Shown in pieces: positions 17,183-32,000 of a DNA stretch of 32,000 nt (within the stretch, counting starts at the first letter, position 1; every line of letters begins with the position of its first letter). Origin of the DNA: an archaeon (GTDB lineage: Archaea > Iainarchaeota > Iainarchaeia > Iainarchaeales > CSSED10-239); contig JBBABY010000009.1 of assembly GCA_041657425.1 (NCBI GenBank), forward strand, positions 15,394-47,393. Direction: 5' to 3'. Below the pieces are notes generated by a model that saw only the letters and a program-made list of their open reading frames with translations, searched no databases and was not told the DNA's origin. Position numbers and translations under genes: made by a program.

Positions 17183-17184
17183 GA

Positions 17185-18684
17185 ATGCCCGAAGTAATCA
17201 TAAAAGACACCGCTCTAATAACCGGTCTAATAGAACAGAAGCTTAGGATCATTGACAACCTTGTCAACGATAGGTCTTTGACCCTACGCGGAGATAGCAG
17301 CCGTGGCGATCTTCTGTCATCTGTTCAGCTCGCCCTTCGGGACTTCCTTGCATCTATCAAAAGATGTAGTACAGCATCCGCAATGACTCGGGTAGTGCGC
17401 GGGAACATTAATAGCTCGGAGCAGTACAATGCCTTCTGGGGAGCTGTCAATGACGACCTAGTCTCCCTATACAAAGAGGCCGACAGGCTTGGTGACCTTC
17501 TTAAGGATCACCATAACTATGTTATGGCCGATATACAGAATCTATTAATCCAACTTAAGGCAGTTAATAGTAGGCTAGCTAACTATGGCCTCTACGCAGA
17601 GACACTGCTATCCAATGAGCGTAATCTAACCGACAACTTCAGTGACACCTCAAAGCTAGAACTCAACTCTCCGCTACTAGGGAAGTCTGAGTGCACGGTA
17701 GATATGGTACAGGGAGTAGTTACACTTGCCATAAGTTCCGAAGAGTTAGTCAAGAAAGATGGCATCGCTGACATCGTTATCTCTTCAGTCAATAGCAATG
17801 GCCAAGCCTATGGAAGTACCAATCTATTAAGCACTATTAATAGTGGGGACTTCTACCTATATGAATACGAGATAACATCTGAAGGAATCCAGCCTAACAA
17901 AGTTACCCTGGACTTCACTATTAAGTTAGAGGAAATGAAGATCCTCAACTTCCTACGTATTGTCCCCAACAACTTTGGAACGAAGACCTGGCCAAAGATC
18001 ACAGCGCTGGATGTATCAGAAGATGGTATTACCATGAATAGTATTCGTAACGAGCTGCTTGGCAATGGAGCAAGTGAGGACCAATTCACCCTAGCTCCTT
18101 ATACAAGTAACTATGCTGGAGAGGGACGCTACAGCTTCCTCCCCAAGCGGGTTAAGTTCGTACATATCACCATTGAACAAACAGCCCCTTACTTTGATGT
18201 AGCACGCAATCTATATAGATGGGTTGTTGGTATTAAGAATATCGAGCTGTGGGGTAGGAAGTTCGAGAATGAGTCAGAGCTTATCTCTAGAGATTATACT
18301 ATCACTAAGGGTATAGAGCAAGTAGCCTTTGATGCTGACGAGTTACCTAACCTACTATACTCCGATACCCTACTGGCCTCAGAGGCAGATATCAAGCATG
18401 AGGTATCCGTTGATGGTGGGATGCGCTGGTATAAGATAGCCCCCCAATACCTAAGCACTGTAGACCCTGAGGCACCAGAGCTTATCTACGTAAATGCTGT
18501 TGATGAAACTGGTGGCTCCACTGGTCTCAACCATATTCAAACAGAGTATGAAGCTACTAACATCAGATACCGCTTAAGGCTAAGTAAGAACGAGACCGTG
18601 ATCGATGACCCTGAACTAGCAGAGTATTATTCTCCCATTGTGAGAAGTATTATACTTAAGATAATTACCAAAGAGGTCTTGTAA
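17185..18684 (+). CDS. structural protein, paralogue 2 of 3: coiled-coil N-terminus plus discoidin-like beta-sandwich
   Basis: 499-aa ORF starting 2 nt after the previous stop. LNFLRIVPNNFGTKTWPKITALDVSEDGITMNSI ... RVKFVHITIEQTAPY ... VVGIKNIELWGR (nt ~17900..18260) is discoidin-like. Its stop overlaps the next start (TAATG 18682..18686). Confidence 0.6.
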   Translation: MPEVIIKDTALITGLIEQKLRIIDNLVNDRSLTLRGDSSRGDLLSSVQLALRDFLASIKRCSTASAMTRVVRGNINSSEQYNAFWGAVNDDLVSLYKEADRLGDLLKDHHNYVMADIQNLLIQLKAVNSRLANYGLYAETLLSNERNLTDNFSDTSKLELNSPLLGKSECTVDMVQGVVTLAISSEELVKKDGIADIVISSVNSNGQAYGSTNLLSTINSGDFYLYEYEITSEGIQPNKVTLDFTIKLEEMKILNFLRIVPNNFGTKTWPKITALDVSEDGITMNSIRNELLGNGASEDQFTLAPYTSNYAGEGRYSFLPKRVKFVHITIEQTAPYFDVARNLYRWVVGIKNIELWGRKFENESELISRDYTITKGIEQVAFDADELPNLLYSDTLLASEADIKHEVSVDGGMRWYKIAPQYLSTVDPEAPELIYVNAVDETGGSTGLNHIQTEYEATNIRYRLRLSKNETVIDDPELAEYYSPIVRSIILKIITKEVL

Positions 18685-21368: not shown

Positions 21369-22574
21369 ATGCCTAACTTTAGCTACCGCGGGCTTTCAGG
21401 CCTATATAAGGGAAGTCTGGGTAACCAGCTTTCCGACTATATAAAGATTGATACCAGCTTCCTGGAACTATCCAAGGATCTGCGGGATATGTCCGTACGC
21501 CTTGTCGCCCTTGAGGCCACCACTGCCGGCGAACTTACAGATGCCAACTTCGTAGTCAATACTATCTCTGGCAACATCCTACTAGAGAATACGGTCGCGG
21601 GCTCTAAGTTACAGGACGGTACCATTACAGGTGACAAGATTGTCACCAACTCAATCTACGGATTGACAGATGCCAACATCGCGACCAACGCCGCCATCAA
21701 CCCCTCTAAGATTGCTCTGGGAGACATAACCCACAGCTCCCTAAAAGAGGTGGGTACCAATACCCACCCAGTGATAGATTCCAAGTTATCTCAGCTCTTC
21801 TCAGATCTAGGGTCTAGCTATGGGACTCCAGAAGGTACCAGCATTAAGGCTGGTCTAACATCTTTGACATCAAACTTTAACATACTCAATACCTTCGTGG
21901 ACCGTAGGGCCCTAAGTACAACAGCTCAAACTGTTGGCCAGGCCATCAACGAATTACATGCCGATGTCAACGCCATCTCTTTCTCGGGAGTTATATCTCA
22001 GACAGGTACCGTGGCTAACCACTTTATAATTGATGATGACCTAGTGGGAACACCAACTGAGACTATCTATCTTGAATTAAACCAAGGCTCTGATCCCTCC
22101 TTTAGATTCTCTGCTATATATCCCGAGGGTAAGCTCCAGATCCATAAGGCAAACTACGACCCTATCATACTGGATATCCAGGGGACTGTTAATGTTAACC
22201 AGCACCTAGTTGTATCAGACAATACTCAACTAGGGTCTAATGATGTTGACCAGCTCGATATCAAGGCACAGCTCTACTCAGATATTATTCCCGGCAGTGG
22301 TGGGCAATTCGACCTTGGGTCAGCCTCGCTGCCCTTTGATACTGTTTATACTTCTGATATTAGTATCGCCAATGGTGATGGTGTAATAGTTGCCGATCCC
22401 TCAGGAGAAGCAAGATACTTAAAGTACAACTTTGATGCTACAGTTCCTCCAAGCGGCATTGATGACAGCTTGATAGGATATTCCAAAGGCTCAAGATGGT
22501 ACGAGAATGACACCGATGAGTATGTGTGCGTGAATCCCGTACCCTCTGGCGCCGTATGGAAGAAGACTACCTAA
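21369..22574 (+). CDS. tail fibre-like protein
   Basis: 401-aa ORF with GGAG 6 nt upstream, after a 42-nt gap. Motifs are typical of phage fibre proteins: VAGSKLQDGTITGDKIVTNSI, ANIATNAAINPSKIALGDITHSSLKEVGTNTHPVID. The C-terminal KGSRWYENDTDEYVCVNPVPSGAVWKK resembles a common fibre-tip ending (G..W.......Y.C.......A.WK). Confidence 0.65.
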   Translation: MPNFSYRGLSGLYKGSLGNQLSDYIKIDTSFLELSKDLRDMSVRLVALEATTAGELTDANFVVNTISGNILLENTVAGSKLQDGTITGDKIVTNSIYGLTDANIATNAAINPSKIALGDITHSSLKEVGTNTHPVIDSKLSQLFSDLGSSYGTPEGTSIKAGLTSLTSNFNILNTFVDRRALSTTAQTVGQAINELHADVNAISFSGVISQTGTVANHFIIDDDLVGTPTETIYLELNQGSDPSFRFSAIYPEGKLQIHKANYDPIILDIQGTVNVNQHLVVSDNTQLGSNDVDQLDIKAQLYSDIIPGSGGQFDLGSASLPFDTVYTSDISIANGDGVIVADPSGEARYLKYNFDATVPPSGIDDSLIGYSKGSRWYENDTDEYVCVNPVPSGAVWKKTT

Positions 22575-22798: not shown

Positions 22799-23155
22799 AT
22801 GACCGACTTCAATGCTCCGGATCCTAATGGATCTGATAATGGCAATGGCAAGAATGGGAATGGCACAAATGCCTGGCCCATGTGGCAACGCCTTGTCCTG
22901 GCAGAGCTTGAAAGACATGATAAGAACCAGAAGGAGTTCTGCGAGAAGGCAGACAAGGAACACAAAGAGATCAATGACAGGATAACAACGGTTATCACAA
23001 ACGATCTAGGAACCATCAAGACTGAGATCGCTGTCATTAAGACTAAGGCCTCTATCTACGGCGCCTTAGCAGGTATGGGGCTATCGCTTCTGATAGAAGT
23101 GATGATGAAGGTTCTGCCTCACCTAGTTGCTAACATAGATAAGGTGGCACGCTAA
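22799..23155 (+). CDS. coiled-coil protein with C-terminal hydrophobic (membrane-anchor-like) segment; XhlA-like architecture
   Basis: 118-aa ORF with GGAG 5 nt upstream. N/G-rich N-terminus, then a charged helical region (AELERHDKNQKEFCEKADKEHKEINDRI), then IYGALAGMGLSLLIEVMMKVL (nt ~23049..23117). Its stop overlaps the next start (TAATG 23153..23157). The architecture resembles PBSX XhlA-type proteins, but similarity is not established. Confidence 0.6.
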   Translation: MTDFNAPDPNGSDNGNGKNGNGTNAWPMWQRLVLAELERHDKNQKEFCEKADKEHKEINDRITTVITNDLGTIKTEIAVIKTKASIYGALAGMGLSLLIEVMMKVLPHLVANIDKVAR

Positions 23156-23598
23156 TGACTGACATATCAGTAGAAGAATCTATACGTAAACTATCTGAGG
23201 CCGTAAATCAGATATCGCATGCGGTTGCGGCCACAGTGTCCACGTCTCGCTACTCTCAATTATCTACGGCTATAAATAACCAACTTGGTGTCATGGAGGC
23301 AGAGATAGATAATCTTGCCTCCGATGTTGAAGCCCTAGATGCTAAGGTAGAGTTGCTCCGAGTTAATGCTACACAGATAGACGATGAGACGCCAGCCGGA
23401 ACCATAGGCGGTGGGAACCGAGTATTTAGACTGGCACATATCCCATCTCCCGCTACTAGTGTTCAACTGTTCCATAATGGAACTCTCCTAATCCGCAATG
23501 TCGACTTCACTATTGTCAGCGACATCATTACGATAACCTCCGGCAGCCCCCATATCCCTAGCGCTAGTGACACTCTAAGAGTGTTCTACAGGTTCTAA
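23155..23598 (+). CDS. small coiled-coil plus beta-domain protein (possible fibre accessory/adaptor)
   Basis: 147-aa ORF, translationally coupled to the previous gene. N-terminal heptad-like helix (LGVMEAEIDNLASDVEALDAKVELLRV). C-terminal ETPAGTIGGGNRVFRLAHIPSPATSVQLFHNGTLLIRNVDFTIVSDIITIT...DTLRVFYRF matches a widespread small phage beta-domain pattern (E.P.G..G.N..F.L...P...S..L..NG..L....D). Confidence 0.65.
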   Translation: MTDISVEESIRKLSEAVNQISHAVAATVSTSRYSQLSTAINNQLGVMEAEIDNLASDVEALDAKVELLRVNATQIDDETPAGTIGGGNRVFRLAHIPSPATSVQLFHNGTLLIRNVDFTIVSDIITITSGSPHIPSASDTLRVFYRF

Positions 23599-23608
23599 GG
23601 AGAATTAG

Positions 23609-26600
23609 ATGCCAAGCTATTGGTCCCCCACTAGGACAATCGAGGATTCTGAATTCGTACAACGGGATGGCTCCGTTGTTATGATAGGGAATCTTGACCT
23701 CGGTGGCTTTGGCATCAACAATCTCATTGATCCCTCTGGCGCTCAAGACGCAGCTACCAAACATTATGTTGATGAACTGCTTGCCTCAGGAGTTTGGCAC
23801 AGCAACTTGGCTGGGCTGCAGGGCGGCACAACCGGCGAATACTTCCACCTTACCGCAACCCAAGAATTAATCATCCCAGATAACATGGTCTCCGCCAGCG
23901 GTAAAGTCTTAACCACAGATGGTATATCAGGATACTGGGGAACAATCTCCGCCCTCCTGGGAACCTCTGGCTACTCTGGATATACCGGTGCTAGCGGAAC
24001 AAGTGGCCATACTGGCGCAAGTGGCAGAACAGGAACTTCCGGATGGTCGGGGTACACTGGCTATACCGGAGCCTCCGGTTCTTCTGGATTCACAGGACGG
24101 AGTGGAACCTCGGGTTATACTGGAACCTCAGGTACGAGTGGTTACACTGGCATAAGTGGCACATCGGGTTGGTCGGGGCACACTGGAGTTAGCGGTTGGA
24201 CGGGTGTTTCGGGAACCTCTGGTTGGTCAGGATATACAGGAGCGAGTGGCGCCTCAGGCTATACAGGTATATCTGGTGCCTCGGGCTGGTCTGGCCATAC
24301 AGGCATTTCGGGCAAGTCGGGCTACACAGGAGCATCTGGTGTTTCGGGTTACACCGGCGTATCTGGTACGACCGGCACTTCCGGCTGGTCAGGATATACT
24401 GGCACAAGTGGATGGACGGGTACTTCTGGTACCTCAGGATACACTGGTGCGTCTGGTGTTAGCGGCTGGTCCGGATATACGGGCACCAGTGGAGCGAGTG
24501 GCCATACAGGAGCATCGGGAATTTCAGGTTGGACCGGGGTCTCTGGAAAGTCAGGCTACACTGGGGCTAGTGGAACTTCGGGTTACACCGGCACATCAGG
24601 CACAAGCGGTTACACTGGTACCTCAGGCTGGACAGGCACTTCGGGCCAAAGCGGTTATACCGGGACAAGTGGTGCGTCTGGCTACACGGGAGCTAGCGGA
24701 TCTTCAGGCTATACTGGTGTGTCTGGAACAAGCGGACAGTCTGGCTATACTGGTGCCTCTGGAACTTCAGGATACACAGGAACTAGTGGAACGTCAGGTT
24801 GGTCGGGCTATACAGGCATAAGTGGCGAGAGCGGGACATCGGGTCAATCTGGATACACAGGAGCCTCAGGAACTTCAGGATATACAGGTGCTTCTGGAAC
24901 GAGTGGCCATTCAGGAACTCCCGGTGCGGTTACGGGACAGAAGCTATACTTTGACCATGCCAAGGAAGTCTTCTTCGTCCCTGTTTCGCAAGCGTCAGCA
25001 AGTAGATTACTCACGTTTACCAACATTGGAACGGGAGGAACGATAGTAGCAAGCGGTGCTACTCCTGGAAGCTTTATAACAGACGGCTGGATTGCAGGTC
25101 AAAAGCTCACTGTTACAAACTCGGGGGTTGCAGGACTAGATGGTAAAGACGCCTGTATTCGGTCAGTAGACTCGCCAACACAAATGACCTTGACCAATGG
25201 CTATGGTGTTGTAACTAATTCAACAAATAACAGCACAGCAACTATCACTATAGATAACGAGACAATATCGAGACTCCCGCCAAACGGAGCAGCTGTTAGC
25301 GAAACCGTCACCAATATTAACAATGCCTCATCCTTCGTGGATATAGATAGCTATGTTACAGTCACAGGCTTTCCGGGCACTTCTCTTATTCCTGGAGGAG
25401 TATGGAAGTTCCACGGGACTTGGTCAGCATCTAGTATAACCAATACGAATGGTGGGTATATAGTACTAGCTAGATCGGCGGATGGATTAACAACTACACT
25501 CATTTCAGGTGGAATAGTAGGAGTCGTACCATCGGTAGGATCCTTAACTACTTCCCCCGTTGCCTACGATACTTACTGGGTTATACCAGCAGATATTCCA
25601 ATTCTAACGACAGATACAATTGTTGTAAGAGCGGTTGCTACCAATAGTGGCGTGGCAGCAAAAGATGTTACTTGGACCTATGGTGGATTAACAGATCCGT
25701 CTTACATAGAAACAACTTTATCTATTGAAGGCATTTCAGGCTGGTCTGGTTACACTGGTGTGTCGGGCGCAAGTGGATATACAGGCGTATCTGGTACATC
25801 TGGATTCACTGGCGCTTCAGGCGCGAGTGGTTACACAGGGGTATCCGGCAAGTCCGGCTACACCGGTACATCTGGGTCATCTGGATTCACTGGAGCTAGT
25901 GGCACATCCGGGGCCTCTGGTTATACTGGCATTTCAGGAACTAGCGGACAATCTGGCTACACGGGGGCAAGTGGGACCTCGGGCTATACGGGTACATCAG
26001 GAATTAGTGGAACATCCGGTATCTCTGGATGGTCTGGTTATACTGGGGCATCTGGCAAGTCGGGGTATACAGGGGCATCAGGTACGAGCGGATGGTCCGG
26101 ATATACAGGCATCTCTGGAACTAGTGGGACCTCCGGTTATACTGGAGCTTCTGGTTCTAGCGGAACTAGTGGATATACAGGAGTAAGTGGAACTTCCGGA
26201 ACCTCAGGTTGGAGCGGATATACTGGAATATCTGGAGCTTCGGGTACTTCGGGCTGGTCAGGATATACCGGCGTAAGTGGAAATTCAGGATGGTCTGGTA
26301 TATCGGGCATAAGTGGCGCTAGTGGATATACTGGTACCTCAGGGACTTCAGGCTATACAGGGATTAGCGGAACATCTGGAACTTCTGGCTGGACTGGAAC
26401 TAGTGGTACGAGTGGTCGGTCTGGATACACTGGTGTCTCTGGAGCAAGTGGCTCCAGTGGTTACACTGGCATTTCTGGAGCTTCTGGTGCCTCGGGCTAT
26501 ACCGGCTTATCTGGTACTTCTGGTACCTCAGGTTATACGGGGATCTCTGGTGCTTCAGGCACTAGCGGCATTAGCGGGTACACCGGAGCCTCTGGTGCAT

Positions 26601-29600
26601 CTGGCTGGAGTGGCTACACTGGGACATCAGGCACAAGCGGTACGTCAGGCTACACTGGTGCCAGCGGAACCTCGGGAAAATCCGGTTATACGGGAACTAG
26701 CGGAACTAGCGGCTACACCGGCATTTCGGGAGTATCAGGTTGGACAGGCGCTAGCGGCACGAGCGGATATACTGGGATCTCTGGTCTTTCAGGAACCTCT
26801 GGCCTATCTGGATACACTGGCACGAGTGGTCAAAGTGGATATACAGGCACATCAGGCACGTCAGGAAGCTCCGGATATACTGGCGTCTCTGGCGCTTCAG
26901 GAGTTAGCGGTTGGACTGGAGCAAGTGGTGTATCAGGAGCTAGTGGGACAAGCGGCTATACGGGTGTTTCTGGTAAGTCTGGCTATACTGGAATCAGTGG
27001 GCAGAGTGGCACCAGTGGCTGGACCGGAGTTAGTGGTCAAAGCGGACAGTCGGGATATACAGGCGCAAGCGGTATTAGTGGCCATACAGGCACCAGCGGA
27101 ACTTCTGGCATCTCAGGTTGGACTGGGACATCTGGAGTAAGCGGTTTTACGGGAGCATCTGGTACATCTGGAACTTCTGGATATACCGGTGTATCAGGAG
27201 TAAGTGGACAAAGCGGTTACACTGGTATCTCTGGAAGCTCGGGCTGGACAGGATATTCCGGCACGAGTGGAATATCAGGAACTTCAGGATGGACTGGTAC
27301 GGGTGGCAAATCAGGTTGGTCTGGATATACCGGTACTTCGGGAACTAGCGGATACTCGGGAGTCTCTGGTTATTCGGGCTACAGTGGACAAGACGGACAA
27401 ACTATACCAGGTGAATCTGGTTACAGTGGCTATACTGGCCAAAGCGGATATTCTGGATACACAGGGTATTCGGGAGCTAGTGGTTATTCTGGCGTATCTG
27501 GTTACAGCGGGTATAGCGGAGAGAGTGGCTACTCGGGATACACAGGTATATCTGGCTATAGTGGCTTCTCCGGCGTCTCTGGTTATAGCGGTTATTCTGG
27601 AGAGAGTGGATACAGCGGATTCACTGGTGAGTCTGGTTACTCAGGATACAGCGGGATTAGCGGATATAGCGGATTCTCCGGCAGTGGGCTATCGGGTTAT
27701 TCTGGCTACTCTGGGGTTAGTGGGTACAGTGGATTTAGCGGTGTGTCTGGATACTCAGGTTATACCGGCGCCAGTGGCATAAGCGGCTACTCTGGTTACA
27801 CTGGTGATAGTGGGATCTCAGGATACAGTGGGTATAGTGGCGCCAGTGGGATTTCTGGGTACTCAGGCTATTCGGGTATCTCAGGGTATAGTGGGAACTC
27901 AGGGATCAGCGGCTACTCAGGGTACACTGGAGTATCTGGGTACAGTGGCTTTTCTGGTAAGTCTGGATATAGCGGTTACTCGGGAGAGTCTGGTTACTCG
28001 GGTTATACAGGTGAGAGTGGATATAGTGGATACACTGGAGTAAGCGGCTACAGTGGTTATACTGGTATCTCAGGGTACTCAGGTTACTCTGGAACTTCTG
28101 GCTATTCAGGTTTCTCTGGCATCAGTGGTTATACAGGCGAATCAGGCCTTAGTGGTTACTCCGGATTCTCTGGGGGATCTGGGTATAGTGGCTTCTCTGG
28201 CGAAAGTGGTTACAGTGGATTTAGTGGAGAGAGTGGTTACTCTGGATATTCTGGAATAAGCGGCTACTCGGGCTACACAGGCATATCGGGTTACAGTGGT
28301 TATACCGGAGCGAGTGGTATCAGCGGCTATTCAGGATACACGGGTGCCTCTGGTATTTCAGGGTATTCTGGGTACACAGGAGCAAGCGGCTTAAGTGGAT
28401 ACAGCGGATATACGGGAGCATCTGGCGAATCTGGATATAGTGGTTTCTCCGGAGTTTCTGGCTACAGTGGCTATTCGGGATTCAGCGGGGAGTCTGGGTA
28501 TTCAGGTTACACAGGTACAAGTGGGTATAGTGGATATACCGGACTTAGCGGCTACTCCGGTTATAGCGGTATCTCGGGTTATTCTGGATATACAGGCGTT
28601 AGTGGGTATAGTGGTTACACTGGCATAAGTGGTTATAGTGGCTCAGGCGTTTCCGGATACTCTGGTTATAGCGGAACAAGTGGGTACTCAGGAGCATCGG
28701 GTTATAGTGGTTATTCAGGAGAGAATCTTACCGTATCTGGTACAAGTGGCTATCTGCCACGATTCTATACTGATGATACATTAGGAGATAGCGCTTTAAG
28801 AACTGGTCAGTCTTGGAATGACGAACATGGCTACGCCTATGCCCCTGCTGACATTGTCGTAGACGGTCCAGGGGCAAGTGGATCTTTTGTTAGCGGCAGC
28901 TTTGGAGCAAGAAGATTAACAGATCAAACAGGATTCTGGTACTTCGCTGATTTCGGTTGGGATAATGAAGCTCTCCCTCCCTATATGACCTTTGGAGATG
29001 GTGGAGCAAATGTCATGCTCCTTGGGCAATATGCCACCATAGCCTCTTCGGCAACACATGTAACACTTACATCTACTCAAGATATTTTTAATAGATTAGG
29101 AGATGCTTCTGGTGTAAGAAAGATATATATCCAAAATTCAAGTACTCAAGATGTTGCTTCTATTGATAGCTCGGGCTCTGCATCGTTCAAAGATCTTATA
29201 CTCACAGTTCCATCTGATACTCCTCCAATAACAGTAACGAGCACAGTGCTATGTCCAAACTTAAATGCCGATCTTCTTGATGGTCATCATTGGGCCGAAA
29301 TAACCACTATGTCTGGTTACTCGGGATATACTGGAGTTAGTGGTACTTCGGGTTACACGGGAGTGTCTGGTAAAAGCGGCTATACAGGTGCAAGTGGTAT
29401 CTCAGGCTTTAGCGGGACCTCAGGTCTCAGCGGATACTCTGGATATCAAGGTAACAAAGCTGGAGCGCTTTACTACTTTGATACAACTACAGCTGAGGGA
29501 ACAGGCGGGGATGGTTGCGTAAGATTCAATGCACCCACTACCTCTGCAACAACAGAAATCTATATAGATGATGCGGACGTTAACGGTCTCAACTTCGCAG

Positions 29601-31348
29601 CCTGGGCTGCTAATATCGGCAGCAACTCCCACCTATATATATCAGTTAATGATGCCGCTCAGGCTTATGTTGCTGTCTTTAGTGTTACTGGCAATAGCTA
29701 TGAGGCTTCCTCATACTTTAAGTTAATAGTTACAAAGATAGCGGGCGCAGTCTCGTCTATTCCTGATAACAGCCAACGTATTAACCTCTGGTATATAGAT
29801 AAGGGAACCGCTGGAGCAAGTGGTTATTCGGGGGTATCCGGCTTTACTGGCGCATCAGGCATCAGCGGCTATAGCGGACTCTCTGGGGTATCAGGTCAGT
29901 CGGGTTACTCTGGCTTCACAGGAGTATCGGGCGTATCGGGTTACTCCGGTATATCAGGATTTACTGGAGCCAGCGGCAAGTCTGGTTATTCTGGTTACAG
30001 CGGCCTATCTGGTTACTCAGGTTATTGTGGCCTCTCCGGCCATAGTGGCTACTCTGGAAGCGGTGTATCTGGTTATTCCGGATATTCTGGTTCAGGAGTT
30101 ACCGATCACGGTGCGTTGACTGGGCTTTCGGACGACGATCACCCACAGTACCAGAAGGAGTCGGAGAAGGACGAGGCAAGCGGGTATGTTGGGTTAGACG
30201 AAGATAAAAAAATAGCAGTTGGAGACGAAGCCACCACAACGGCACAAGCAAATGTGAGGGCGAAAACGTATGCGACCGTTGGACTTGCGATAAAAGGAAA
30301 AACAGAACCAACCGATATAAAGGAACCAGATGAGGTGTTCGGGACAAACCTAAAAGGATGGTATAAGGCAGAAAACATAACCGGAAAATCGGATGGAGAC
30401 GCCCTGACTCAATGGGACGACCTCTCTGGAAATGGGTATCACATGACCGTCCCCTCCGGAAAAACTGGGGCGCAGTATTACTCAAACACGCTAAACGGAA
30501 AAGCCGTGACCAGATGGACAACTGGGGATGGAATGGCAAATTCTAGTTTTCCACATGGGAATGACCTTGCGATCTTTATGGTATTTAAAAGAGCCGGTAA
30601 TTATTCGCGGTGGGACCGGCACATTCAGGGAGTTGGTGGAAAAAACTGGTGGGTTGGTTTAAGGGATGACGAGAACAACGGGAGTAAGAAAATAACAGTG
30701 AATCTGGACGGTGGATCAATTGGGTATATTTCAGGGTACAACACGCAAGACCAATATTATCTTGTCTCGGTGAGGAGAAGTTCTACCCAAGCGATATTAG
30801 CAAGGAGAAACAGCGAGAGCGACACGGCAACTGGTTTAACAGGAAAAGATATGGGAACCGGAATGGCGATAAGCGGAGGAGGAACATACGCTGAATATGT
30901 TTATGGAGATATTGCAGAAATAATTTATGCCGACTGTCTTCCTACAGCAACGCAGATGGCCGACATAAACAATTATGTTCTGAGTGAATACGGAATAACC
31001 GGGATGTCAGAGCAGGAGGGATCAAGTAGCGGGCTGACTCAGACGGCAGACTTCATACAGGCCATAAATAATGATGGAACGGTTTTAACTGGGATTGATA
31101 AAAACGGAAGTATGAAATTTAAATCAGGGTCAAATATGAGATTGGGGCAAGCGACTCTTTTAAGTGGGACCGTGACCGTCAACAACACAACCATTACGGC
31201 CAACACTATGATTTTCATGCAAAGGGTAAGTGGATCGAACGAAGGGCATCTTGAATACAGCATTACAGCAGGAACATCATTTACGATTACAAGCACGAAC
31301 ACATGGGACGATGGTGTGATAAACTGGTTATTAGTAGAATCAATGTGA
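23609..31348 (+). CDS. giant collagen-like tail fibre / receptor-binding protein with C-terminal LamG-like lectin domain
   Basis: 2579-aa ORF with AAGGAG (23597..23602) 6 nt upstream. The N-terminus has classic fibre motifs (LDLGGFGINNLIDPSGAQDAATKHYVDE; HSNLAGLQGGTTGEYFHLT). Four Gly-X-Y blocks total ~1471 aa and are interspersed with three globular segments (24932..25729, 28727..29314, 29459..29803). Further fibre motifs are LPRFYTDDTLGDSAL, LNADLLDGHHW and GLSDDDHPQY, followed by a LamG-like domain and a terminal beta domain. Confidence 0.9.
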   Translation: MPSYWSPTRTIEDSEFVQRDGSVVMIGNLDLGGFGINNLIDPSGAQDAATKHYVDELLASGVWHSNLAGLQGGTTGEYFHLTATQELIIPDNMVSASGKVLTTDGISGYWGTISALLGTSGYSGYTGASGTSGHTGASGRTGTSGWSGYTGYTGASGSSGFTGRSGTSGYTGTSGTSGYTGISGTSGWSGHTGVSGWTGVSGTSGWSGYTGASGASGYTGISGASGWSGHTGISGKSGYTGASGVSGYTGVSGTTGTSGWSGYTGTSGWTGTSGTSGYTGASGVSGWSGYTGTSGASGHTGASGISGWTGVSGKSGYTGASGTSGYTGTSGTSGYTGTSGWTGTSGQSGYTGTSGASGYTGASGSSGYTGVSGTSGQSGYTGASGTSGYTGTSGTSGWSGYTGISGESGTSGQSGYTGASGTSGYTGASGTSGHSGTPGAVTGQKLYFDHAKEVFFVPVSQASASRLLTFTNIGTGGTIVASGATPGSFITDGWIAGQKLTVTNSGVAGLDGKDACIRSVDSPTQMTLTNGYGVVTNSTNNSTATITIDNETISRLPPNGAAVSETVTNINNASSFVDIDSYVTVTGFPGTSLIPGGVWKFHGTWSASSITNTNGGYIVLARSADGLTTTLISGGIVGVVPSVGSLTTSPVAYDTYWVIPADIPILTTDTIVVRAVATNSGVAAKDVTWTYGGLTDPSYIETTLSIEGISGWSGYTGVSGASGYTGVSGTSGFTGASGASGYTGVSGKSGYTGTSGSSGFTGASGTSGASGYTGISGTSGQSGYTGASGTSGYTGTSGISGTSGISGWSGYTGASGKSGYTGASGTSGWSGYTGISGTSGTSGYTGASGSSGTSGYTGVSGTSGTSGWSGYTGISGASGTSGWSGYTGVSGNSGWSGISGISGASGYTGTSGTSGYTGISGTSGTSGWTGTSGTSGRSGYTGVSGASGSSGYTGISGASGASGYTGLSGTSGTSGYTGISGASGTSGISGYTGASGASGWSGYTGTSGTSGTSGYTGASGTSGKSGYTGTSGTSGYTGISGVSGWTGASGTSGYTGISGLSGTSGLSGYTGTSGQSGYTGTSGTSGSSGYTGVSGASGVSGWTGASGVSGASGTSGYTGVSGKSGYTGISGQSGTSGWTGVSGQSGQSGYTGASGISGHTGTSGTSGISGWTGTSGVSGFTGASGTSGTSGYTGVSGVSGQSGYTGISGSSGWTGYSGTSGISGTSGWTGTGGKSGWSGYTGTSGTSGYSGVSGYSGYSGQDGQTIPGESGYSGYTGQSGYSGYTGYSGASGYSGVSGYSGYSGESGYSGYTGISGYSGFSGVSGYSGYSGESGYSGFTGESGYSGYSGISGYSGFSGSGLSGYSGYSGVSGYSGFSGVSGYSGYTGASGISGYSGYTGDSGISGYSGYSGASGISGYSGYSGISGYSGNSGISGYSGYTGVSGYSGFSGKSGYSGYSGESGYSGYTGESGYSGYTGVSGYSGYTGISGYSGYSGTSGYSGFSGISGYTGESGLSGYSGFSGGSGYSGFSGESGYSGFSGESGYSGYSGISGYSGYTGISGYSGYTGASGISGYSGYTGASGISGYSGYTGASGLSGYSGYTGASGESGYSGFSGVSGYSGYSGFSGESGYSGYTGTSGYSGYTGLSGYSGYSGISGYSGYTGVSGYSGYTGISGYSGSGVSGYSGYSGTSGYSGASGYSGYSGENLTVSGTSGYLPRFYTDDTLGDSALRTGQSWNDEHGYAYAPADIVVDGPGASGSFVSGSFGARRLTDQTGFWYFADFGWDNEALPPYMTFGDGGANVMLLGQYATIASSATHVTLTSTQDIFNRLGDASGVRKIYIQNSSTQDVASIDSSGSASFKDLILTVPSDTPPITVTSTVLCPNLNADLLDGHHWAEITTMSGYSGYTGVSGTSGYTGVSGKSGYTGASGISGFSGTSGLSGYSGYQGNKAGALYYFDTTTAEGTGGDGCVRFNAPTTSATTEIYIDDADVNGLNFAAWAANIGSNSHLYISVNDAAQAYVAVFSVTGNSYEASSYFKLIVTKIAGAVSSIPDNSQRINLWYIDKGTAGASGYSGVSGFTGASGISGYSGLSGVSGQSGYSGFTGVSGVSGYSGISGFTGASGKSGYSGYSGLSGYSGYCGLSGHSGYSGSGVSGYSGYSGSGVTDHGALTGLSDDDHPQYQKESEKDEASGYVGLDEDKKIAVGDEATTTAQANVRAKTYATVGLAIKGKTEPTDIKEPDEVFGTNLKGWYKAENITGKSDGDALTQWDDLSGNGYHMTVPSGKTGAQYYSNTLNGKAVTRWTTGDGMANSSFPHGNDLAIFMVFKRAGNYSRWDRHIQGVGGKNWWVGLRDDENNGSKKITVNLDGGSIGYISGYNTQDQYYLVSVRRSSTQAILARRNSESDTATGLTGKDMGTGMAISGGGTYAEYVYGDIAEIIYADCLPTATQMADINNYVLSEYGITGMSEQEGSSSGLTQTADFIQAINNDGTVLTGIDKNGSMKFKSGSNMRLGQATLLSGTVTVNNTTITANTMIFMQRVSGSNEGHLEYSITAGTSFTITSTNTWDDGVINWLLVESM
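23960..24931 (+). repeat. collagen-like block 1: 108 uninterrupted G-X-[S/T] triplets (dialect A)
   Basis: Counted triplet by triplet from GTS GYS GYT GAS ... to GHS GTP GAV. Gly is at every third residue with no break. Y position is Ser/Thr in 106/108 triplets, and there is one Pro. An aromatic residue (Y/W/H/F) occupies X roughly every third triplet. Confidence 0.95.
25730..27349 (+). repeat. collagen-like block 2a: ~180 G-X-[S/T] triplets (dialect A)
   Basis: GIS GWS GYT GVS ... GTG GKS GWS GYT GTS GTS. Same composition as block 1, including Trp at X positions. Confidence 0.95.
27350..28726 (+). repeat. collagen-like block 2b: ~459 aa of Tyr/Phe-dense G-[Y/F]-S-G-[Y/F]-[S/T]-G-x-S repeats (dialect B)
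   Basis: GYS GVS GYS GYS GQD GQT-IP-GES GYS GYT GQS ... GYS GYS GEN. Tyr or Phe occupies about two of every three X positions, with no Trp. Register breaks are at ~27401..27409 (IP insertion), ~27680..27688 (G-S-G) and ~28640..28648 (G-S-G). Confidence 0.95.
29315..29458 (+). repeat. collagen-like block 3: 16 G-X-Y triplets
   Basis: GYS GYT GVS GTS GYT GVS GKS GYT GAS GIS GFS GTS GLS GYS GYQ GNK, read directly. Confidence 0.9.
29804..30103 (+). repeat. collagen-like block 4: ~100 aa, dialect-B-like, with two G-S-G breaks and a single Cys
   Basis: GTA GAS GYS GVS GFT ... GYS GYC GLS GHS GYS GS GVS GYS GYS GS GVT. The Cys codon TGT is at 30026..30028. Confidence 0.9.
30340..31000 (+). other. 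LamG / concanavalin-A-like lectin domain at the fibre tip
   Basis: LKGWYKAENITGKSDGDALTQWDDLSGNGYHMT...NGKAVTRW...LAIFMVFKR...YYLVSVRRS...GTYAEYVYGDIAEIIYADCLPTATQMADINNYVLSEYGI. The start (W.a......g..v..W.D.SGNG.h) and the end (GDIAE.I.Y...L.......I..YL..KYGI) are typical of bacterial/phage Laminin_G_3-type domains. Borders are approximate. Confidence 0.7.
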
Positions 31349-31358
31349 GGAGAACCAG

Positions 31359-31562
31359 ATGGCCCCGATAGAAGCGAAGGAAGGAATTGGGTGGGTTTCA
31401 GCCATCGTGGGTTTCTTCGTTGCTATCTATCGATATCCAATAATAGAGACGGGAACAACTAAACTAAGTCAGCTTATAGGGCAGCTCATCATTGCCGATA
31501 CTGCTTCTTTGCCTGCAACATACATTCGCGGTATTAATAAAACACAGCTACTTGCTAGCTAA
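31359..31562 (+). CDS. small hydrophobic protein (unknown; possible fibre-associated or membrane protein)
   Basis: 67-aa ORF with GAGGAG (31347..31352) 6 nt upstream. It has a hydrophobic stretch, GIGWVSAIVGFFVAIY (nt ~31386..31435). It shares the AAA-rich codon style of the fibre 3' end. Confidence 0.6.
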   Translation: MAPIEAKEGIGWVSAIVGFFVAIYRYPIIETGTTKLSQLIGQLIIADTASLPATYIRGINKTQLLAS

Positions 31563-31564
31563 GC

Positions 31565-31593
31565 TTGACAAAACTCTAATTATCATATAATAT
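31565..31593 (+). promoter_or_regulatory. sigma70-like promoter candidate upstream of the glycosyltransferase gene
   Basis: Perfect -35 TTGACA at 31565..31570. The -10 is either TATAAT at 31586..31591 (15-nt spacer) or TAATAT at 31588..31593 (17-nt spacer). Located in the 62-nt intergenic gap, with GGGAG at 31610..31614 ahead of ATG 31625. Confidence 0.5.
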
Positions 31594-31624: not shown

Positions 31625-32000
31625 ATGCCTAAATGCTCTATTGTTATTCCCACTTTTAACCATTGTGATGATCTTCTCAAACCCTGCCTAGAATCCATCC
31701 GCAAATATACAGACCTTTCCATGGTTGAGGTTATTGTTGTAGCCAATGGCTGCAAAGATAACACACGAGAGTATGTTGAATCTCTGGGCGACCCATTCAA
31801 ACTCCTATGGTTTGATGAAGGTCTAGGTTATACTAAAGCAACCAATGAGGGCATGAAGATAGCAACGGGCGAATATATTATCCCGCTTAATAACGATGTC
31901 CAGATCCTCGACCTAGGTCAAGGTCATAACAAGTGGCTTAATGATCTACTAAAGCCCTTCGAAACAGATGAGTCTATTGGTATCACTGGCCCCATGCTTT
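31625..32000 (+). CDS. glycosyltransferase family 2 (GT-A fold), 5' partial; runs off the window end
   Basis: Not in the supplied ORF track because there is no stop in the window. My own translation from ATG 31625 gives MPKCSIVIPTFNHCDDLLKPCLESIRKYTDLSMVEVIVVANGCKDNTREYVESLGDPFKLLWFDEGLGYTKATNEGMKIATGEYIIPLNNDVQILDLGQGHNKWLNDLLKPFETDESIGITGPML with no stop. It has the canonical GT2 N-terminus (SIVIPTFN ... DNT.EY ... G...A.N.G...A.GEYI..LNND). An in-frame TAG at 31595..31597 limits upstream extension. Confidence 0.85.
   Translation, partial: MPKCSIVIPTFNHCDDLLKPCLESIRKYTDLSMVEVIVVANGCKDNTREYVESLGDPFKLLWFDEGLGYTKATNEGMKIATGEYIIPLNNDVQILDLGQGHNKWLNDLLKPFETDESIGITGPML

What the first reader, a model, noticed from the sequence alone, without database searches (positions are those of the whole stretch)
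23609..31348. Giant 2,579-aa fibre that is ~57% proline-poor Gly-X-[Ser/Thr] collagen-like repeat
I read the translation triplet by triplet.
- Block 1 (23960..24931) is 108 consecutive G-X-Y triplets with no interruption.
- Block 2 (25730..28726) is 999 aa with only three register breaks.
- Blocks 3 and 4 add 48 and 100 aa, giving about 1,471 of 2,579 residues.

The Y position is Ser or Thr in essentially every triplet (106/108 in block 1), and block 1 has one Pro. This is therefore not a Pro/Hyp-stabilised collagen. With the canonical collagen rise of ~0.29 nm per residue, block 2 alone would span ~285 nm and all blocks ~420 nm, which is longer than most phage tails. Most described phage collagen-like segments are tens of triplets, so the scale and composition are unusual. 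The architecture is beads on a string: three globular domains and a lectin tip.
Basis: partly seen in the sequence, partly recalled or inferred. Interest (0 to 1): 0.8.

Follow-up and report, generated by a model that had tools for sequence, protein, structure and literature searches.

The report
Giant collagen-like phage tail fibre
This is a real 2,579-residue fibre gene at the end of a phage baseplate operon. More than half of it is a collagen-type Gly-X-Y repeat of an uncharacterised chemistry (no proline, almost no charge, tyrosine-rich, Ser/Thr at every third position). Related phages carry equal or larger versions, so it is an extreme member of a known kind, not a one-off.

Summary
ORF 23609..31348 (+) encodes 2,579 aa. 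Of these, 1,452 (56%) lie in Gly-X-Y runs: 108 uninterrupted triplets, then 999 aa with three register breaks, then two short blocks. Y is Ser/Thr in 98% of triplets, X is Tyr/Trp/Phe in 42%, there is one Pro, and there are no KGE/KGD salt-bridge triplets.

It is not an assembly artefact. An independent assembly gives the identical protein, and no 25-mer recurs in the ORF.

The gene follows a myovirus-type baseplate module. Its N-terminus carries a tail-fibre motif. Its C-terminus is a ConA/LamG-like domain plus a K1-lyase_C domain. One internal "bead" (D3) has a fold found in many viral collagen-repeat fibres.

Syntenic relatives from landfill metagenomes carry fibres of 2,639 aa and at least 3,071 aa (at least 1,824 repeat residues). 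The same Pro-poor aromatic/Ser chemistry recurs in unrelated phage contigs. The scale is therefore extreme but not unique.

Best reading: a trimeric, very long, flexible tail fibre with a collagen-like shaft. A glycosyltransferase next to the fibre in three clade members hints at Ser/Thr O-glycosylation. The triple helix, the ~415 nm length and the glycosylation are all untested.

The parts
23155..23598 (+). 147-aa gene directly upstream of the fibre. It is conserved (39% identity) in the same position in relative L002. Candidate fibre adaptor or assembly factor; function unknown.
   Evidence: no Pfam or PHROG hit
23609..31348 (+). Giant fibre ORF, 2,579 aa
   Evidence: identical in an independent assembly
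23609..23797 (+). N-terminal segment (aa 1-63) with the motif NLxDPxxxQDAATKxYVD, shared with many phage tail-fibre families. Presumed baseplate-proximal end.
   Evidence: PHROG tail / tail-fibre hits at E 1e-6 to 1e-3; the motif is repeated in P0002 and P0003
23798..23959 (+). Pre-collagen junction (aa 64-117, 'GLQGGTTGEYFHLT...'). It is conserved immediately before the first collagen block of the orthologue P0004. Candidate trimerisation or registration element.
   Evidence: 54% identity to P0004 aa 694-747
23960..24931 (+). Collagen-like block 1: 108 uninterrupted Gly-X-Y triplets (GTS, GYT and GAS types)
24932..25729 (+). Globular insert D1 (aa 442-707), an orphan domain
   Evidence: no Pfam, PHROG or PDB hit; only one 155-aa fragment hit in 5.8 billion proteins
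25730..28726 (+). Collagen-like block 2: 999 aa in runs of 186, 31, 106 and 8 triplets, with one G4G-type and two G1G-type interruptions. The chemistry shifts from GYT/GTS-rich (aa 708-1265) to GYS-GYS-GxS with a 9-residue period (aa 1268-1706).
28727..29314 (+). Globular insert D2 (aa 1707-1902). It ends in 'NLNADLLDGHHWAEITT' directly before block 3. The same motif precedes a collagen block in L005.
   Evidence: no Pfam, PHROG or PDB homologue
29315..29458 (+). Collagen-like block 3 (16 triplets)
29459..29803 (+). Node domain D3 (aa 1951-2065): a small all-beta domain that recurs between collagen blocks in other viral fibres
   Evidence: homologous copies in P0004, P0072 and P0089; AF2 pLDDT 76; BFVD matches at TM 0.8-0.88 to viral collagen-repeat proteins; no PDB match
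29804..30097 (+). Collagen-like block 4 (29 triplets, then a Gly-X-Gly shift and a few more triplets; contains one GYC-GLS unit)
30110..30259 (+). Post-collagen motif 'DHGALTGLSDDDHPQY...', a short module that is widespread and often repeated in other large fibre-like proteins
   Evidence: query residues 1-50, up to 19 stretches per hit; PHROG 4302
30332..31009 (+). ConA/LamG-like jelly-roll domain (presumed carbohydrate-binding receptor domain)
   Evidence: query residues 75-300; 5 of 13 aligned homologues hit PF13385 Laminin_G_3, best E 4.5e-11; weak profile hit to the pentraxin 1b09. The window sequence itself does not hit the Pfam model.
31133..31336 (+). C-terminal K1-lyase_C domain (PF24146)
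   Evidence: E = 3e-18; hundreds of homologues at protein C-termini
31359..31562 (+). 67-aa ORF with a hydrophobic segment, lying between the fibre and the glycosyltransferase
31565..31593 (+). Sigma-70-like promoter match (TTGACA-17-TAATAT) in the AT-rich gap before the glycosyltransferase gene
   Evidence: 10 of 12 matches; the number of such matches in the region is not above chance
31625..32000 (+). 5' part of a family-2 glycosyltransferase gene that runs off the window. Relatives encode a 716-717-aa GT2 + Methyltransf_24 + GT17 fusion at this position.
   Evidence: PF00535 E = 4e-20; L002 and L004

Best explanation
The ORF encodes the long tail fibre of an uncultured large contractile-tailed phage. 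Relatives are 106-149-kb contigs from a landfill leachate metagenome.

Proposed structure (inferred):
- Three chains assemble into a homotrimer.
- The short N-terminus docks on the baseplate.
- Four collagen-like Gly-X-Y segments form a thin triple-helical shaft.
- Three globular nodes (D1, D2, D3) and conserved junction motifs interrupt the shaft. They probably set chain register and nucleate folding of the neighbouring segments.
- The distal end carries a ConA/LamG-like domain and a K1-lyase_C domain that bind a host surface glycan.

If fully helical, the shaft would add about 415 nm of flexible reach. The fibre would then act as a long tether that enlarges the capture radius of the virion.

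The repeat chemistry is Gly-(Tyr/Trp/Phe/Thr/Ala/Ile/Val)-(Ser/Thr), without Pro, Hyp or salt bridges. It must be stabilised differently from characterised collagens. The adjacent phage glycosyltransferase suggests, but does not show, O-glycosylation of Ser/Thr at the Y position.

Shown here: the gene is real, and its repeat anatomy, genomic context, domain identities and conservation across a clade are established. Inferred: trimer, triple helix, length, glycosylation and receptor type.
For: 1. Real gene under selection. The protein is identical in two assemblies. The repeats are fully scrambled at the DNA level, with genome-typical codon usage. This indicates selection on the amino-acid pattern over a long time, not recent slippage.

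2. Triple-helix signature.
- Gly is at every third residue for up to 186 triplets.
- There is strict X/Y asymmetry: 201 aromatic and 89 Ile/Val/Leu residues at X against 0 and 1 at Y. This is the direction expected from triple-helix geometry, where bulky residues are tolerated at X (own knowledge of host-guest data).
- The interruptions are of the G1G and G4G types known from non-fibrillar collagens.
- Pfam Collagen scores E = 1e-191.

3. Fibre context.
- Upstream lie a Baseplate_J protein, a baseplate wedge protein and virion structural proteins.
- The most similar baseplate proteins are in Bacillus phage 0305phi8-36 and related large myoviruses.
- The N-terminus carries a tail-fibre motif.

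4. Distal binding domains: LamG-like by transitive homology, and K1-lyase_C.

5. D3 has the fold of a node domain embedded in dozens of viral collagen-repeat fibre proteins, including one annotated as a cyanophage 'baseplate wedge tail fiber connector'.

6. Clade conservation. L002/P0004 (2,639 aa) and L005 (at least 3,071 aa) hold the same slot with the same chemistry.

7. Glycosyltransferase next to the fibre locus in the window, L002 and L004.

8. Precedents.
- Phage-encoded glycosyltransferases glycosylate mycobacteriophage capsid and tail-tube proteins (cited in PMC12619734).
- Mimivirus L230 glycosylates viral collagen (PMC4691112).
- (Gly-Pro-Thr)10 becomes triple-helical only when galactosylated (PMC11923368).
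Against: - No experiment or multimer model tests trimerisation or the triple helix here.
- Aromatic residues are absent from characterised phage collagens (EPclPs; PMC3368898).
- Tyr at X and Ser at Y rank among the destabilising guests in collagen host-guest peptides (own knowledge).
- The fibre has 0 of 477 KGE/KGD clamps and about 2% charged residues, so it lacks the proposed general folding code (PMC11923368).
- D1 and D2 have no homologues, so their roles are guesses.
- The LamG assignment is transitive; the window sequence itself misses the Pfam model.
- The single-sequence AF2 model of the C-terminus failed (pLDDT 36).
- The glycosyltransferase has its own promoter-like site.
- No glycosyltransferase was found within 8 kb of unrelated proteins with the same repeat chemistry.
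- Phage glycosyltransferases also serve DNA or host-surface modification.
- The host is unknown.
Confidence: 0.7

Rival explanations
1. The Gly/Ser/Tyr repeats are not a triple helix. Instead they form an intrinsically disordered, sticky low-complexity tether, comparable to [G/S]Y[G/S]-rich domains such as FUS LC or resilin-like proteins. Such a tether would adhere to exopolysaccharide, or to other fibres, through Tyr/Trp-sugar and Tyr-Tyr contacts. The globular domains would be strung along a random coil.
For: - The composition is Gly, Ser, Thr and Tyr with about 2% charge and no Pro.
- No known collagen stabiliser is present.
- Aromatic residues are the classical sugar-stacking residues (own knowledge).
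Against: - A disordered linker does not need Gly at exactly every third residue for 186 triplets.
- It also does not need a strict X/Y division of residue types kept across scrambled codons and across diverged orthologues.
- The interruptions are the discrete G1G and G4G types.
- D3-type nodes co-occur with ordinary collagen repeats in other viruses.
Confidence: 0.15
2. It is a collagen-like virion appendage but not the receptor-binding tail fibre. It could be a whisker, a curly or decorative fibre as in phage 0305phi8-36, a head fibre, or a structure that bundles or entangles particles.
For: - The distant kinship of the baseplate genes is to 0305phi8-36, which carries large corkscrew fibres at the baseplate.
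- A separate 401-aa fibre-like gene lies upstream at 21369..22574.
- An aromatic-rich surface could promote lateral association (own knowledge).
Against: - The curly-fibre candidates of 0305phi8-36 flank the head module, not the end of the baseplate module.
- tblastn of the fibre's modules against 50,697 deposited phage records, which include 0305phi8-36, found nothing.
- The C-terminal LamG-like and K1-lyase_C domains are typical distal binding modules.
- The C-terminal module differs between orthologues, as expected for host-range determinants.
Confidence: 0.12
3. The ORF is an assembly chimera or collapsed/expanded repeat, or a decaying pseudogene.
For: Other assemblies break inside these genes: P0001 starts at aa 1379, L006 ends in the repeat, and the L004 contig ends beside the glycosyltransferase.
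Against: - The 7.7-kb ORF is identical in an independent assembly.
- It contains no repeated 25-mer.
- The reading frame is intact and codon usage is normal.
- Syntenic orthologues exist.
Confidence: 0.02

Closest known systems
Viral 'collagen triple helix repeat' fibre proteins with beta-sandwich node domains (uncultured Caudovirales; Synechococcus phages S-H34 and S-CAM7; Marseillevirus, Indivirus and Klosneuvirus proteins in BFVD)
   Same: - Gly-X-Y blocks alternate with small globular nodes.
- The D3 fold matches at TM 0.8-0.88.
- One of these proteins is annotated as a baseplate/tail-fibre connector.
   Different: - None of them is structurally or functionally characterised, and there is no PDB counterpart for the node.
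- The two relatives whose sequences were examined (P0072, P0089) have ordinary Pro-, Gln- and charge-containing repeats.
- Here the repeats are Pro-free, near-neutral and aromatic-rich, and they are longer.
E. coli O157:H7 prophage collagen-like proteins EPclA/EPclB (side tail fibre proteins; PMC3368898)
   Same: - They are phage tail-fibre-type trimers with a collagen stalk between globular domains.
- They have a dumbbell or beads-on-a-string shape, and the triple helix is experimentally verified.
   Different: - EPclA is about 62 nm long in total.
- Its X position is 48% Pro, it has about 22-35% charged residues, and it has no Cys, Phe, His, Trp or Tyr at all.
- No other Pfam family was detected here: the only matches are Collagen and K1-lyase_C.
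Bacillus exosporium BclA-type Gly-X-Thr collagen-like glycoproteins
   Same: - Thr dominates the Y position (Gram-positive collagens have 48% Thr at Y).
- They lack Hyp.
- Stabilisation is linked to Thr O-glycosylation (own knowledge; PMC11923368).
   Different: - BclA repeats are mainly Gly-Pro-Thr and far shorter.
- BclA ends in a C1q-like domain and is a spore protein, not a phage protein.
- Here Ser is more common than Thr at Y, and X is aromatic or aliphatic.
Mimivirus collagen-like fibril proteins with the L230 hydroxylase/glycosyltransferase (PMC4691112)
   Same: Virus-encoded collagen-like surface fibres, together with a virus-encoded enzyme that glycosylates them.
   Different: - The chemistry is hydroxylysine-linked glucose in a eukaryotic giant virus.
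- No hydroxylase domain was seen in the glycosyltransferase of the relatives, which is GT2 + methyltransferase + GT17.
Bacillus phage 0305phi8-36 lineage (large myoviruses with elaborate baseplate fibres; PMC2147016)
   Same: These phages give the strongest local tblastn alignments to the Baseplate_J protein among deposited phages (E 1e-16 to 4e-21 over about a third of the protein). They have large genomes and complex baseplate and fibre modules.
   Different: - Identity is only 34-38% over a third of one protein.
- There is no DNA similarity.
- tblastn of the fibre's modules against the deposited-phage collection found nothing.

Membership tests
Collagen triple-helix repeat proteins (Pfam PF01391 / InterPro IPR008160) | Gly at every third residue over at least 6 contiguous triplets; HMM score above the gathering threshold | tested here: met
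   Runs of 108, 186, 31, 106, 8, 16 and 29 triplets. PF01391 scores 621 bits against a cutoff of 27.2.
Collagen triple-helix repeat proteins (Pfam PF01391 / InterPro IPR008160) | Three chains form a right-handed triple helix (CD maximum near 220-225 nm, cooperative melt, protease resistance, rod shape in EM) | not testable with these tools
   Only monomer AF2 is available. No experiment was possible.
Characterised non-animal collagens (Scl2, EPclA, BclA types) | A recognised stabiliser: Pro-rich X position and/or a high charge / KGE-KGD salt-bridge content | tested here: not met
   1 Pro in 1,452 repeat residues, 29 charged residues, and 0 of 477 KGE/KGD triplets. Compare PMC3368898 and PMC11923368.
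Characterised non-animal collagens (Scl2, EPclA, BclA types) | O-glycosylated Thr/Ser at Y as the stabiliser (BclA / Riftia type) | not testable with these tools
   Y is Ser/Thr in 98% of triplets. A GT2 gene lies 277 nt downstream. No modification data exist.
Phage tail fibre / receptor-binding protein | Encoded in the tail/baseplate morphogenesis module | tested here: met
   Baseplate_J, baseplate wedge and virion structural genes lie upstream on the same strand. The synteny is conserved in L002 and L005.
Phage tail fibre / receptor-binding protein | Sequence similarity to known tail-fibre families | tested here: inconclusive
   Only a roughly 30-aa N-terminal motif hits PHROG tail / tail-fibre families, at E 1e-6 to 1e-3. 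tblastn found no match in 50,697 deposited phage records.
Phage tail fibre / receptor-binding protein | Distal carbohydrate- or receptor-binding domain that varies between relatives | tested here: met
   LamG-like domain by transitive homology, plus K1-lyase_C. The orthologue P0004 has a different C-terminal region.
Phage tail fibre / receptor-binding protein | Present in the virion and required for adsorption | not testable with these tools
   The phage is uncultured and known only from metagenomes.
EPclA/B prophage side-tail-fibre collagens | PfN - PCoil - Col - PfC domain set | tested here: not met
   Pfam scans of the whole protein and of each non-repeat segment found only Collagen and K1-lyase_C. 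No EPcl-like match was found by tblastn in the deposited-phage collection.
Viral collagen-repeat fibres with a D3-type node domain | A beta-sandwich node of the same fold inserted between Gly-X-Y blocks | tested here: met
   Sequence homologues in P0004, P0072 and P0089. AF2 pLDDT 76. 43 BFVD matches at E <= 1e-3, with TM up to 0.88.

The most novel reading that the evidence does not exclude
The repeats define an uncharacterised class of collagen triple helix, (Gly-[Tyr/Phe/Trp/aliphatic]-[Ser/Thr])n. This class folds and stays folded over hundreds of triplets with no proline, no hydroxyproline and no Lys-Glu/Asp clamps.

Possible stabilisers are phage-directed O-glycosylation of Ser/Thr at Y, a surface ladder of tyrosines, or both. 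The helix would build roughly 0.4-um tethers whose aromatic- and hydroxyl-rich shaft may itself bind polysaccharide.

If so, it would be a natural counter-example to the proposed universal salt-bridge folding code for collagens. It would also be a new Pro-free scaffold for recombinant collagen materials.
Probability: 0.35. Interest if true: 0.75.

Novelty: new variant of a known kind. Interest (0 to 1): 0.55.

Why it matters
Collagen-like segments in phage fibres are known, but the characterised ones are short and rely on proline and charge pairs.

This gene and its clade show that phages maintain repeats of 1,400 to more than 1,800 residues with a chemistry that lacks every experimentally established stabiliser. 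The repeats appear to be under long-term selection, judged by codons that are fully scrambled around a fixed amino-acid pattern.

That makes one question directly testable: can a Pro-free, charge-free, Tyr/Ser-rich Gly-X-Y chain form a triple helix, with or without glycosylation? The conserved junction and node domains provide natural trimerisation handles for recombinant constructs.

For phage biology, fibres of up to about 0.4 um would be among the longest known. They would imply a capture strategy suited to hosts embedded in thick matrices such as landfill-leachate biofilms.

For annotation, the work shows that the D3 node domain is a widespread marker of viral collagen fibres, from tailed phages to giant viruses, that has no solved structure.

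Tried and rejected
- Megablast of 23.6 kb of context against 50,697 deposited phage records found no match.
- tblastn of the C-terminal region, the junction plus block 1, and the D2-D3 region against the same collection found no match. BLAST's low-complexity filter may hide repeat hits.
- A concatenated non-repeat query against 5.8 billion proteins found only the same protein's C-terminal fragment, plus two proteins that share the N-terminal motif.
- D1 searched alone found one 155-aa fragment.
- PDB sequence searches for D1, D2, D3 and the C-terminus found nothing significant.
- The AF2 single-sequence model of the C-terminal 427 aa gave pLDDT 36 and was discarded without a fold search.
- The genome-contig scan for a prophage copy, which would have named a host, found none.
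- A viral-contig scan with a single neighbouring protein found none. An alignment query was needed.
- Generality of the glycosyltransferase link: neighbourhoods of P0011, P0015 and P0007 show no glycosyltransferase within 8 kb, so the link is clade-specific.
- A literature search for the repeat strings (GYSGYSG and similar) found no relevant paper.
- Assembly artefact and recent slippage expansion were considered and rejected.
- A polyproline-II helix bundle fold (snow-flea antifreeze type) was considered and rejected. Such bundles need short helices joined by turns, whereas here runs of up to 186 triplets have no turn motifs. This is an inference and was not tested.
Full report
OBSERVATION

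The window holds a single uninterrupted ORF at 23609..31348 on the + strand, with an ATG start and 2,579 codons. A script that finds maximal Gly-X-Y runs gives the following:
- aa 118-441: 108 triplets, nt 23960..24931.
- aa 708-1265: 186 triplets.
- aa 1268-1360: 31 triplets.
- aa 1363-1680: 106 triplets.
- aa 1683-1706: 8 triplets.
- aa 1903-1950: 16 triplets.
- aa 2066-2152: 29 triplets.

These sum to 1,452 residues, or 56.3% of the protein.

The three breaks inside the 999-aa second block are one two-residue insertion (G-QTIP-G, a G4G-type interruption) and two Gly-Ser-Gly register shifts (G1G type).

The Y position is Ser (365) or Thr (107) in 472 of 484 triplets. X is Tyr 156, Thr 80, Ala 53, Ile 42, Val 37, Trp 26 and Phe 19. 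There is a single Pro in all the repeats. Pfam's Collagen model scores E = 1e-191.

IS IT REAL?

The repeat is not an assembly artefact:
- A Logan assembly of run SRR6484787 (77,426-bp contig, locus L001) matches the window exactly across the gene and encodes the identical 2,579-aa product.
- A JGI contig encodes an identical C-terminal 1,201 aa (P0001).
- No exact 25-mer occurs twice within the 7.7-kb ORF, and only five 20-mers do.
- Tandem Repeats Finder reports only short, 67-85%-matching arrays.
- Codon usage inside the repeats is the same as in the other genes of the window. All six Ser codons (38% AGY, 62% TCN) and all four Gly codons are used.

The amino-acid pattern is therefore held constant while the DNA has diverged to saturation. 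This is the signature of long-term purifying selection on the protein pattern, and possibly of selection against recombinogenic DNA repeats. It is not the signature of recent slippage.

CONTEXT

All large ORFs of the window are on the + strand and form a tail/baseplate module:
- A 1,524-aa protein with a Peptidase_M15_4 domain.
- A baseplate wedge protein.
- A Baseplate_J protein (PF04865, E = 1.5e-21).
- Several proteins matching 'virion structural protein' PHROG families; the 880-aa one has a discoidin domain.

Megablast finds nothing among 50,697 deposited phage records. By tblastn, the Baseplate_J protein's strongest local alignments (34-38% identity over part of the protein) are to Bacillus phage 0305phi8-36, Bacillus phage KLEB27-3 and Moorella phage MTATph1. 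These are large myoviruses, and 0305phi8-36 is known for elaborate baseplate fibres (PMC2147016).

The giant ORF is the last gene of this module. It is followed by a 67-aa hydrophobic ORF and an AT-rich gap with a TTGACA-17-TAATAT promoter-like site. After that comes the start of a family-2 glycosyltransferase that runs off the window (31625..32000; PF00535, E = 4e-20).

ANATOMY OF THE PROTEIN

N-terminus. Residues 1-63 carry the motif NLxDPxxxQDAATKxYVD. It hits PHROG tail and tail-fibre families (E down to 1e-6) and is repeated many times in two other metagenomic fibre-like proteins.

Pre-collagen junction. Residues 64-117 ('GLQGGTTGEYFHLT...') lie immediately before block 1. They are 54% identical to the equivalent pre-collagen segment of the orthologue P0004.

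D1 (aa 442-707) and D2 (aa 1707-1902). Both are orphans. They have no Pfam, PHROG or PDB match, and for D1 there is a single fragment hit in 5.8 billion proteins. D2 ends in 'NLNADLLDGHHWAEITT' directly before block 3. The same motif sits before a collagen block in relative L005.

D3 (aa 1951-2065).
- It has sequence homologues between collagen blocks of P0004, P0072 and P0089.
- With that six-row alignment, AlphaFold2 gives an all-beta model (pLDDT 76, pTM 0.75).
- Foldseek finds no solved counterpart (best E = 0.03).
- It finds 43 matches at E <= 1e-3 in BFVD, with TM 0.8-0.88. Nearly all are annotated 'collagen triple helix repeat' proteins from uncultured tailed phages, from cyanophages (S-H34 'baseplate wedge tail fiber connector', S-CAM7) and from giant viruses.

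C-terminal region. An exhaustive HMMER search gave 4,960 hits at E <= 1e-3 and splits the region into three widely shared modules:
- A short 'DHxxLxGLxxDDHPQY' motif.
- A 220-aa domain. Its stand-alone homologues hit Laminin_G_3 (ConA-like lectin/glucanase superfamily) in 5 of 13 cases. Its profile weakly matches the pentraxin jelly-roll of C-reactive protein.
- A terminal K1-lyase_C domain (PF24146, E = 3e-18).

The LamG assignment is transitive, however. The single-sequence AF2 model of this region was too poor to use (pLDDT 36).

RELATIVES

The closest full-length hit, P0004 (2,639 aa), lies on a 146.9-kb contig of IMG metagenome 3300035208, a landfill leachate well (PMC12607003). It sits in the same gene order as in the window: 674, 610, 501, 897, 496, 65, 88 and 140 aa, then the fibre. 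It has 744 Gly-X-Y residues of the same chemistry. It shares the junction and the D3 module but has a different 690-aa N-terminus and a different C-terminal region.

A second relative, L005 (105.9-kb IMG/VR contig), carries a fibre ORF in the same slot that is still open after 3,071 codons. Its first 2,502 residues contain at least 1,824 Gly-X-Y residues. Most are GYS, GFS and GYC-GLS units, with a Gly-X-Gly shift every 9-15 triplets and 59 Cys at Y.

A third relative, L004 (149-kb contig), ends beside the fibre locus. It shows a 716-aa GT2 + Methyltransf_24 + GT17 fusion, followed by a weak GT2-like match (18.4 bits, below Pfam's gathering cutoff) and a weak GT9-like match. L002 has the same 717-aa fusion two genes after its fibre.

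L006, from another sample, repeats the L002-type fibre, and the contig breaks inside the repeat.

HOW UNUSUAL?

A full-length search returned 86 proteins of 1.4-4.1 kaa. Measured with the same script:
- The window protein has the largest Gly-X-Y content among the non-eukaryotic hits: 1,452 residues, against 1,449 in the 4,070-aa P0007.
- It has the longest uninterrupted run: 186 triplets, with 170 and 151 next.
- L005 exceeds it in total repeat content.
- The same Pro-poor, aromatic-X / Ser-Y chemistry appears in many other hits (P0011, P0014-P0016, P0020, P0026, P0029, P0033 and others).
- Some of these lie on unrelated phage contigs, for example P0011 on a contig with heme oxygenase and bilin reductase genes.

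The literature states that prokaryotic collagen-like chains reach about 2,000 triplets (PMC11923368). The scale is thus extreme but not record-setting, and the chemistry is a recurrent class.

That class does not appear in the literature I could search:
- The EPcl study reports that Cys, Phe, His, Trp and Tyr are absent from prophage collagen domains, and that X is 48% Pro (PMC3368898).
- The 2022 review of prokaryotic collagen-like proteins never mentions aromatic or serine-rich types.
- The repeat strings occur in no relevant paper.
- The 2025 'folding code' paper proposes KGE/KGD salt bridges as a convergent clamp in all domains and viruses, with KGD forming 13% of viral triplets.

This fibre and its two orthologues have 0 KGE/KGD triplets, and only 7-9% of their triplets carry any charge.

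MECHANISM

The most likely reading is a homotrimeric tail fibre whose shaft segments are collagen-type triple helices.

Arguments for the helix, beyond the Gly periodicity:
- A strict X/Y division of labour: 201 aromatic and 89 Ile/Val/Leu residues at X, against none and one at Y. This is the direction expected from triple-helix geometry, because bulky residues are least tolerated at Y in host-guest peptides (own knowledge).
- The discrete G1G and G4G interruption types.
- A three-triplet (9-residue) periodicity of aromatic positions in blocks 1 and 2c.
- Conserved motifs and node domains abutting each block. These are plausible trimerisation and registration nuclei, but this is an inference.

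With the canonical 0.286 nm rise per residue, the repeats sum to 415 nm, and block 2 alone to 286 nm. This is an upper bound, since an imino-acid-free helix with interruptions would be flexible.

What stabilises the helix is open. The adjacent multi-domain glycosyltransferase in three clade members suggests O-glycosylation of Ser/Thr. There are precedents: glycosylated mycobacteriophage capsid and tail-tube proteins (cited in PMC12619734), Mimivirus L230 acting on viral collagen, and galactosyl-Thr-dependent folding of (Gly-Pro-Thr)10.

The evidence for glycosylation is only conserved adjacency within one clade. The glycosyltransferase seems to have its own promoter, and unrelated proteins with the same chemistry lack such neighbours. 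I put this sub-hypothesis at about 0.3.

RIVALS

A disordered, sticky Gly/Ser/Tyr tether fits the composition. It does not explain the exact triplet register and the X/Y asymmetry, which are kept through scrambled codons and across orthologues.

A non-receptor appendage (whisker or curly fibre) cannot be excluded without localisation data. However, the variable distal LamG and K1-lyase_C modules point to receptor binding.

An artefact or pseudogene is effectively excluded.

VERDICT

The claim of uniqueness in scale is weakened by larger orthologues and by the literature.

The finding is best filed as a new variant of a known kind. It is a phage collagen-like tail fibre with an uncharacterised Pro-free, charge-free, aromatic/Ser-Thr repeat chemistry at extreme length, conserved in a clade of uncultured landfill phages.

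Noticed in passing
window 31625..32000 (+); L002 18670..20823; L004 5185..7335 (-): A glycosyltransferase gene follows the fibre locus in all three clade members where the downstream region is visible. In the relatives it is a 716-717-aa GT2 + Methyltransf_24 + GT17 fusion. In L004 it is followed by weak GT2-like and GT9-like matches, both below Pfam's gathering cutoffs. The architecture recalls multi-domain glycan-building enzymes of chloroviruses (own knowledge).
   Followed up: partly
window 31565..31593 (+): A TTGACA-17-TAATAT promoter-like site lies in the AT-rich gap just upstream of the glycosyltransferase gene. This suggests a transcription unit separate from the late structural operon.
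   Followed up: no
window 36..4610 (+): A 1,524-aa protein has a Peptidase_M15_4 (D-Ala-D-Ala carboxypeptidase) domain at aa 592-656. It also matches a 1,954-position 'endolysin' PHROG and has a hydrophobic C-terminal third. It is likely a tail-associated lysin or tape-measure-like protein.
   Followed up: no
window 15341..21326 (+): Three consecutive genes (613, 499 and 880 aa) hit overlapping 'virion structural protein' PHROG families (20243, 21108, 19683), so they are probably paralogues. The 880-aa protein carries an F5/8 type C (discoidin) domain.
   Followed up: no
L005 15128..end, extended by L011 (IMGVR_UViG_3300035208_003507): The orthologous fibre is at least 3,071 aa and still open. 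It has at least 1,824 Gly-X-Y residues and 59 Cys at the Y position in recurring GYC-GLS units, which could form inter-chain disulfides. These are followed by beta-helix-like GxNTAVG repeats and six roughly 40-aa 'WTDLVAGDKNWxGITSQSGVLYAT' propeller-like repeats.
   Followed up: partly
P0001 (JGI 47-kb contig), L006 (Ga0172381_10003273), L004 contig end: Short-read assemblies repeatedly break inside or beside these fibre genes, even though the window ORF has no exact repeat of 25 nt or more. Fibre genes of this clade are probably under-represented or truncated in viral databases.
   Followed up: partly
window 29459..29803 (D3): The D3 fold is a widespread node domain of viral collagen-repeat proteins, from tailed phages to Marseillevirus, Indivirus and Klosneuvirus. 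It has no solved structure and no Pfam family.
   Followed up: yes
window 24156..24821, 25725..26186, 26313..27140, 27204..27782 (+): Long alternative-frame ORFs lie inside the repeat region. They are by-products of stop-poor repetitive sequence, not genes.
   Followed up: no
window 21369..22574 (+): A 401-aa protein with no family match lies between the baseplate genes and the giant fibre (the counterpart in L002 is 496 aa). It could be a second, short fibre or a fibre-attachment protein.
   Followed up: no
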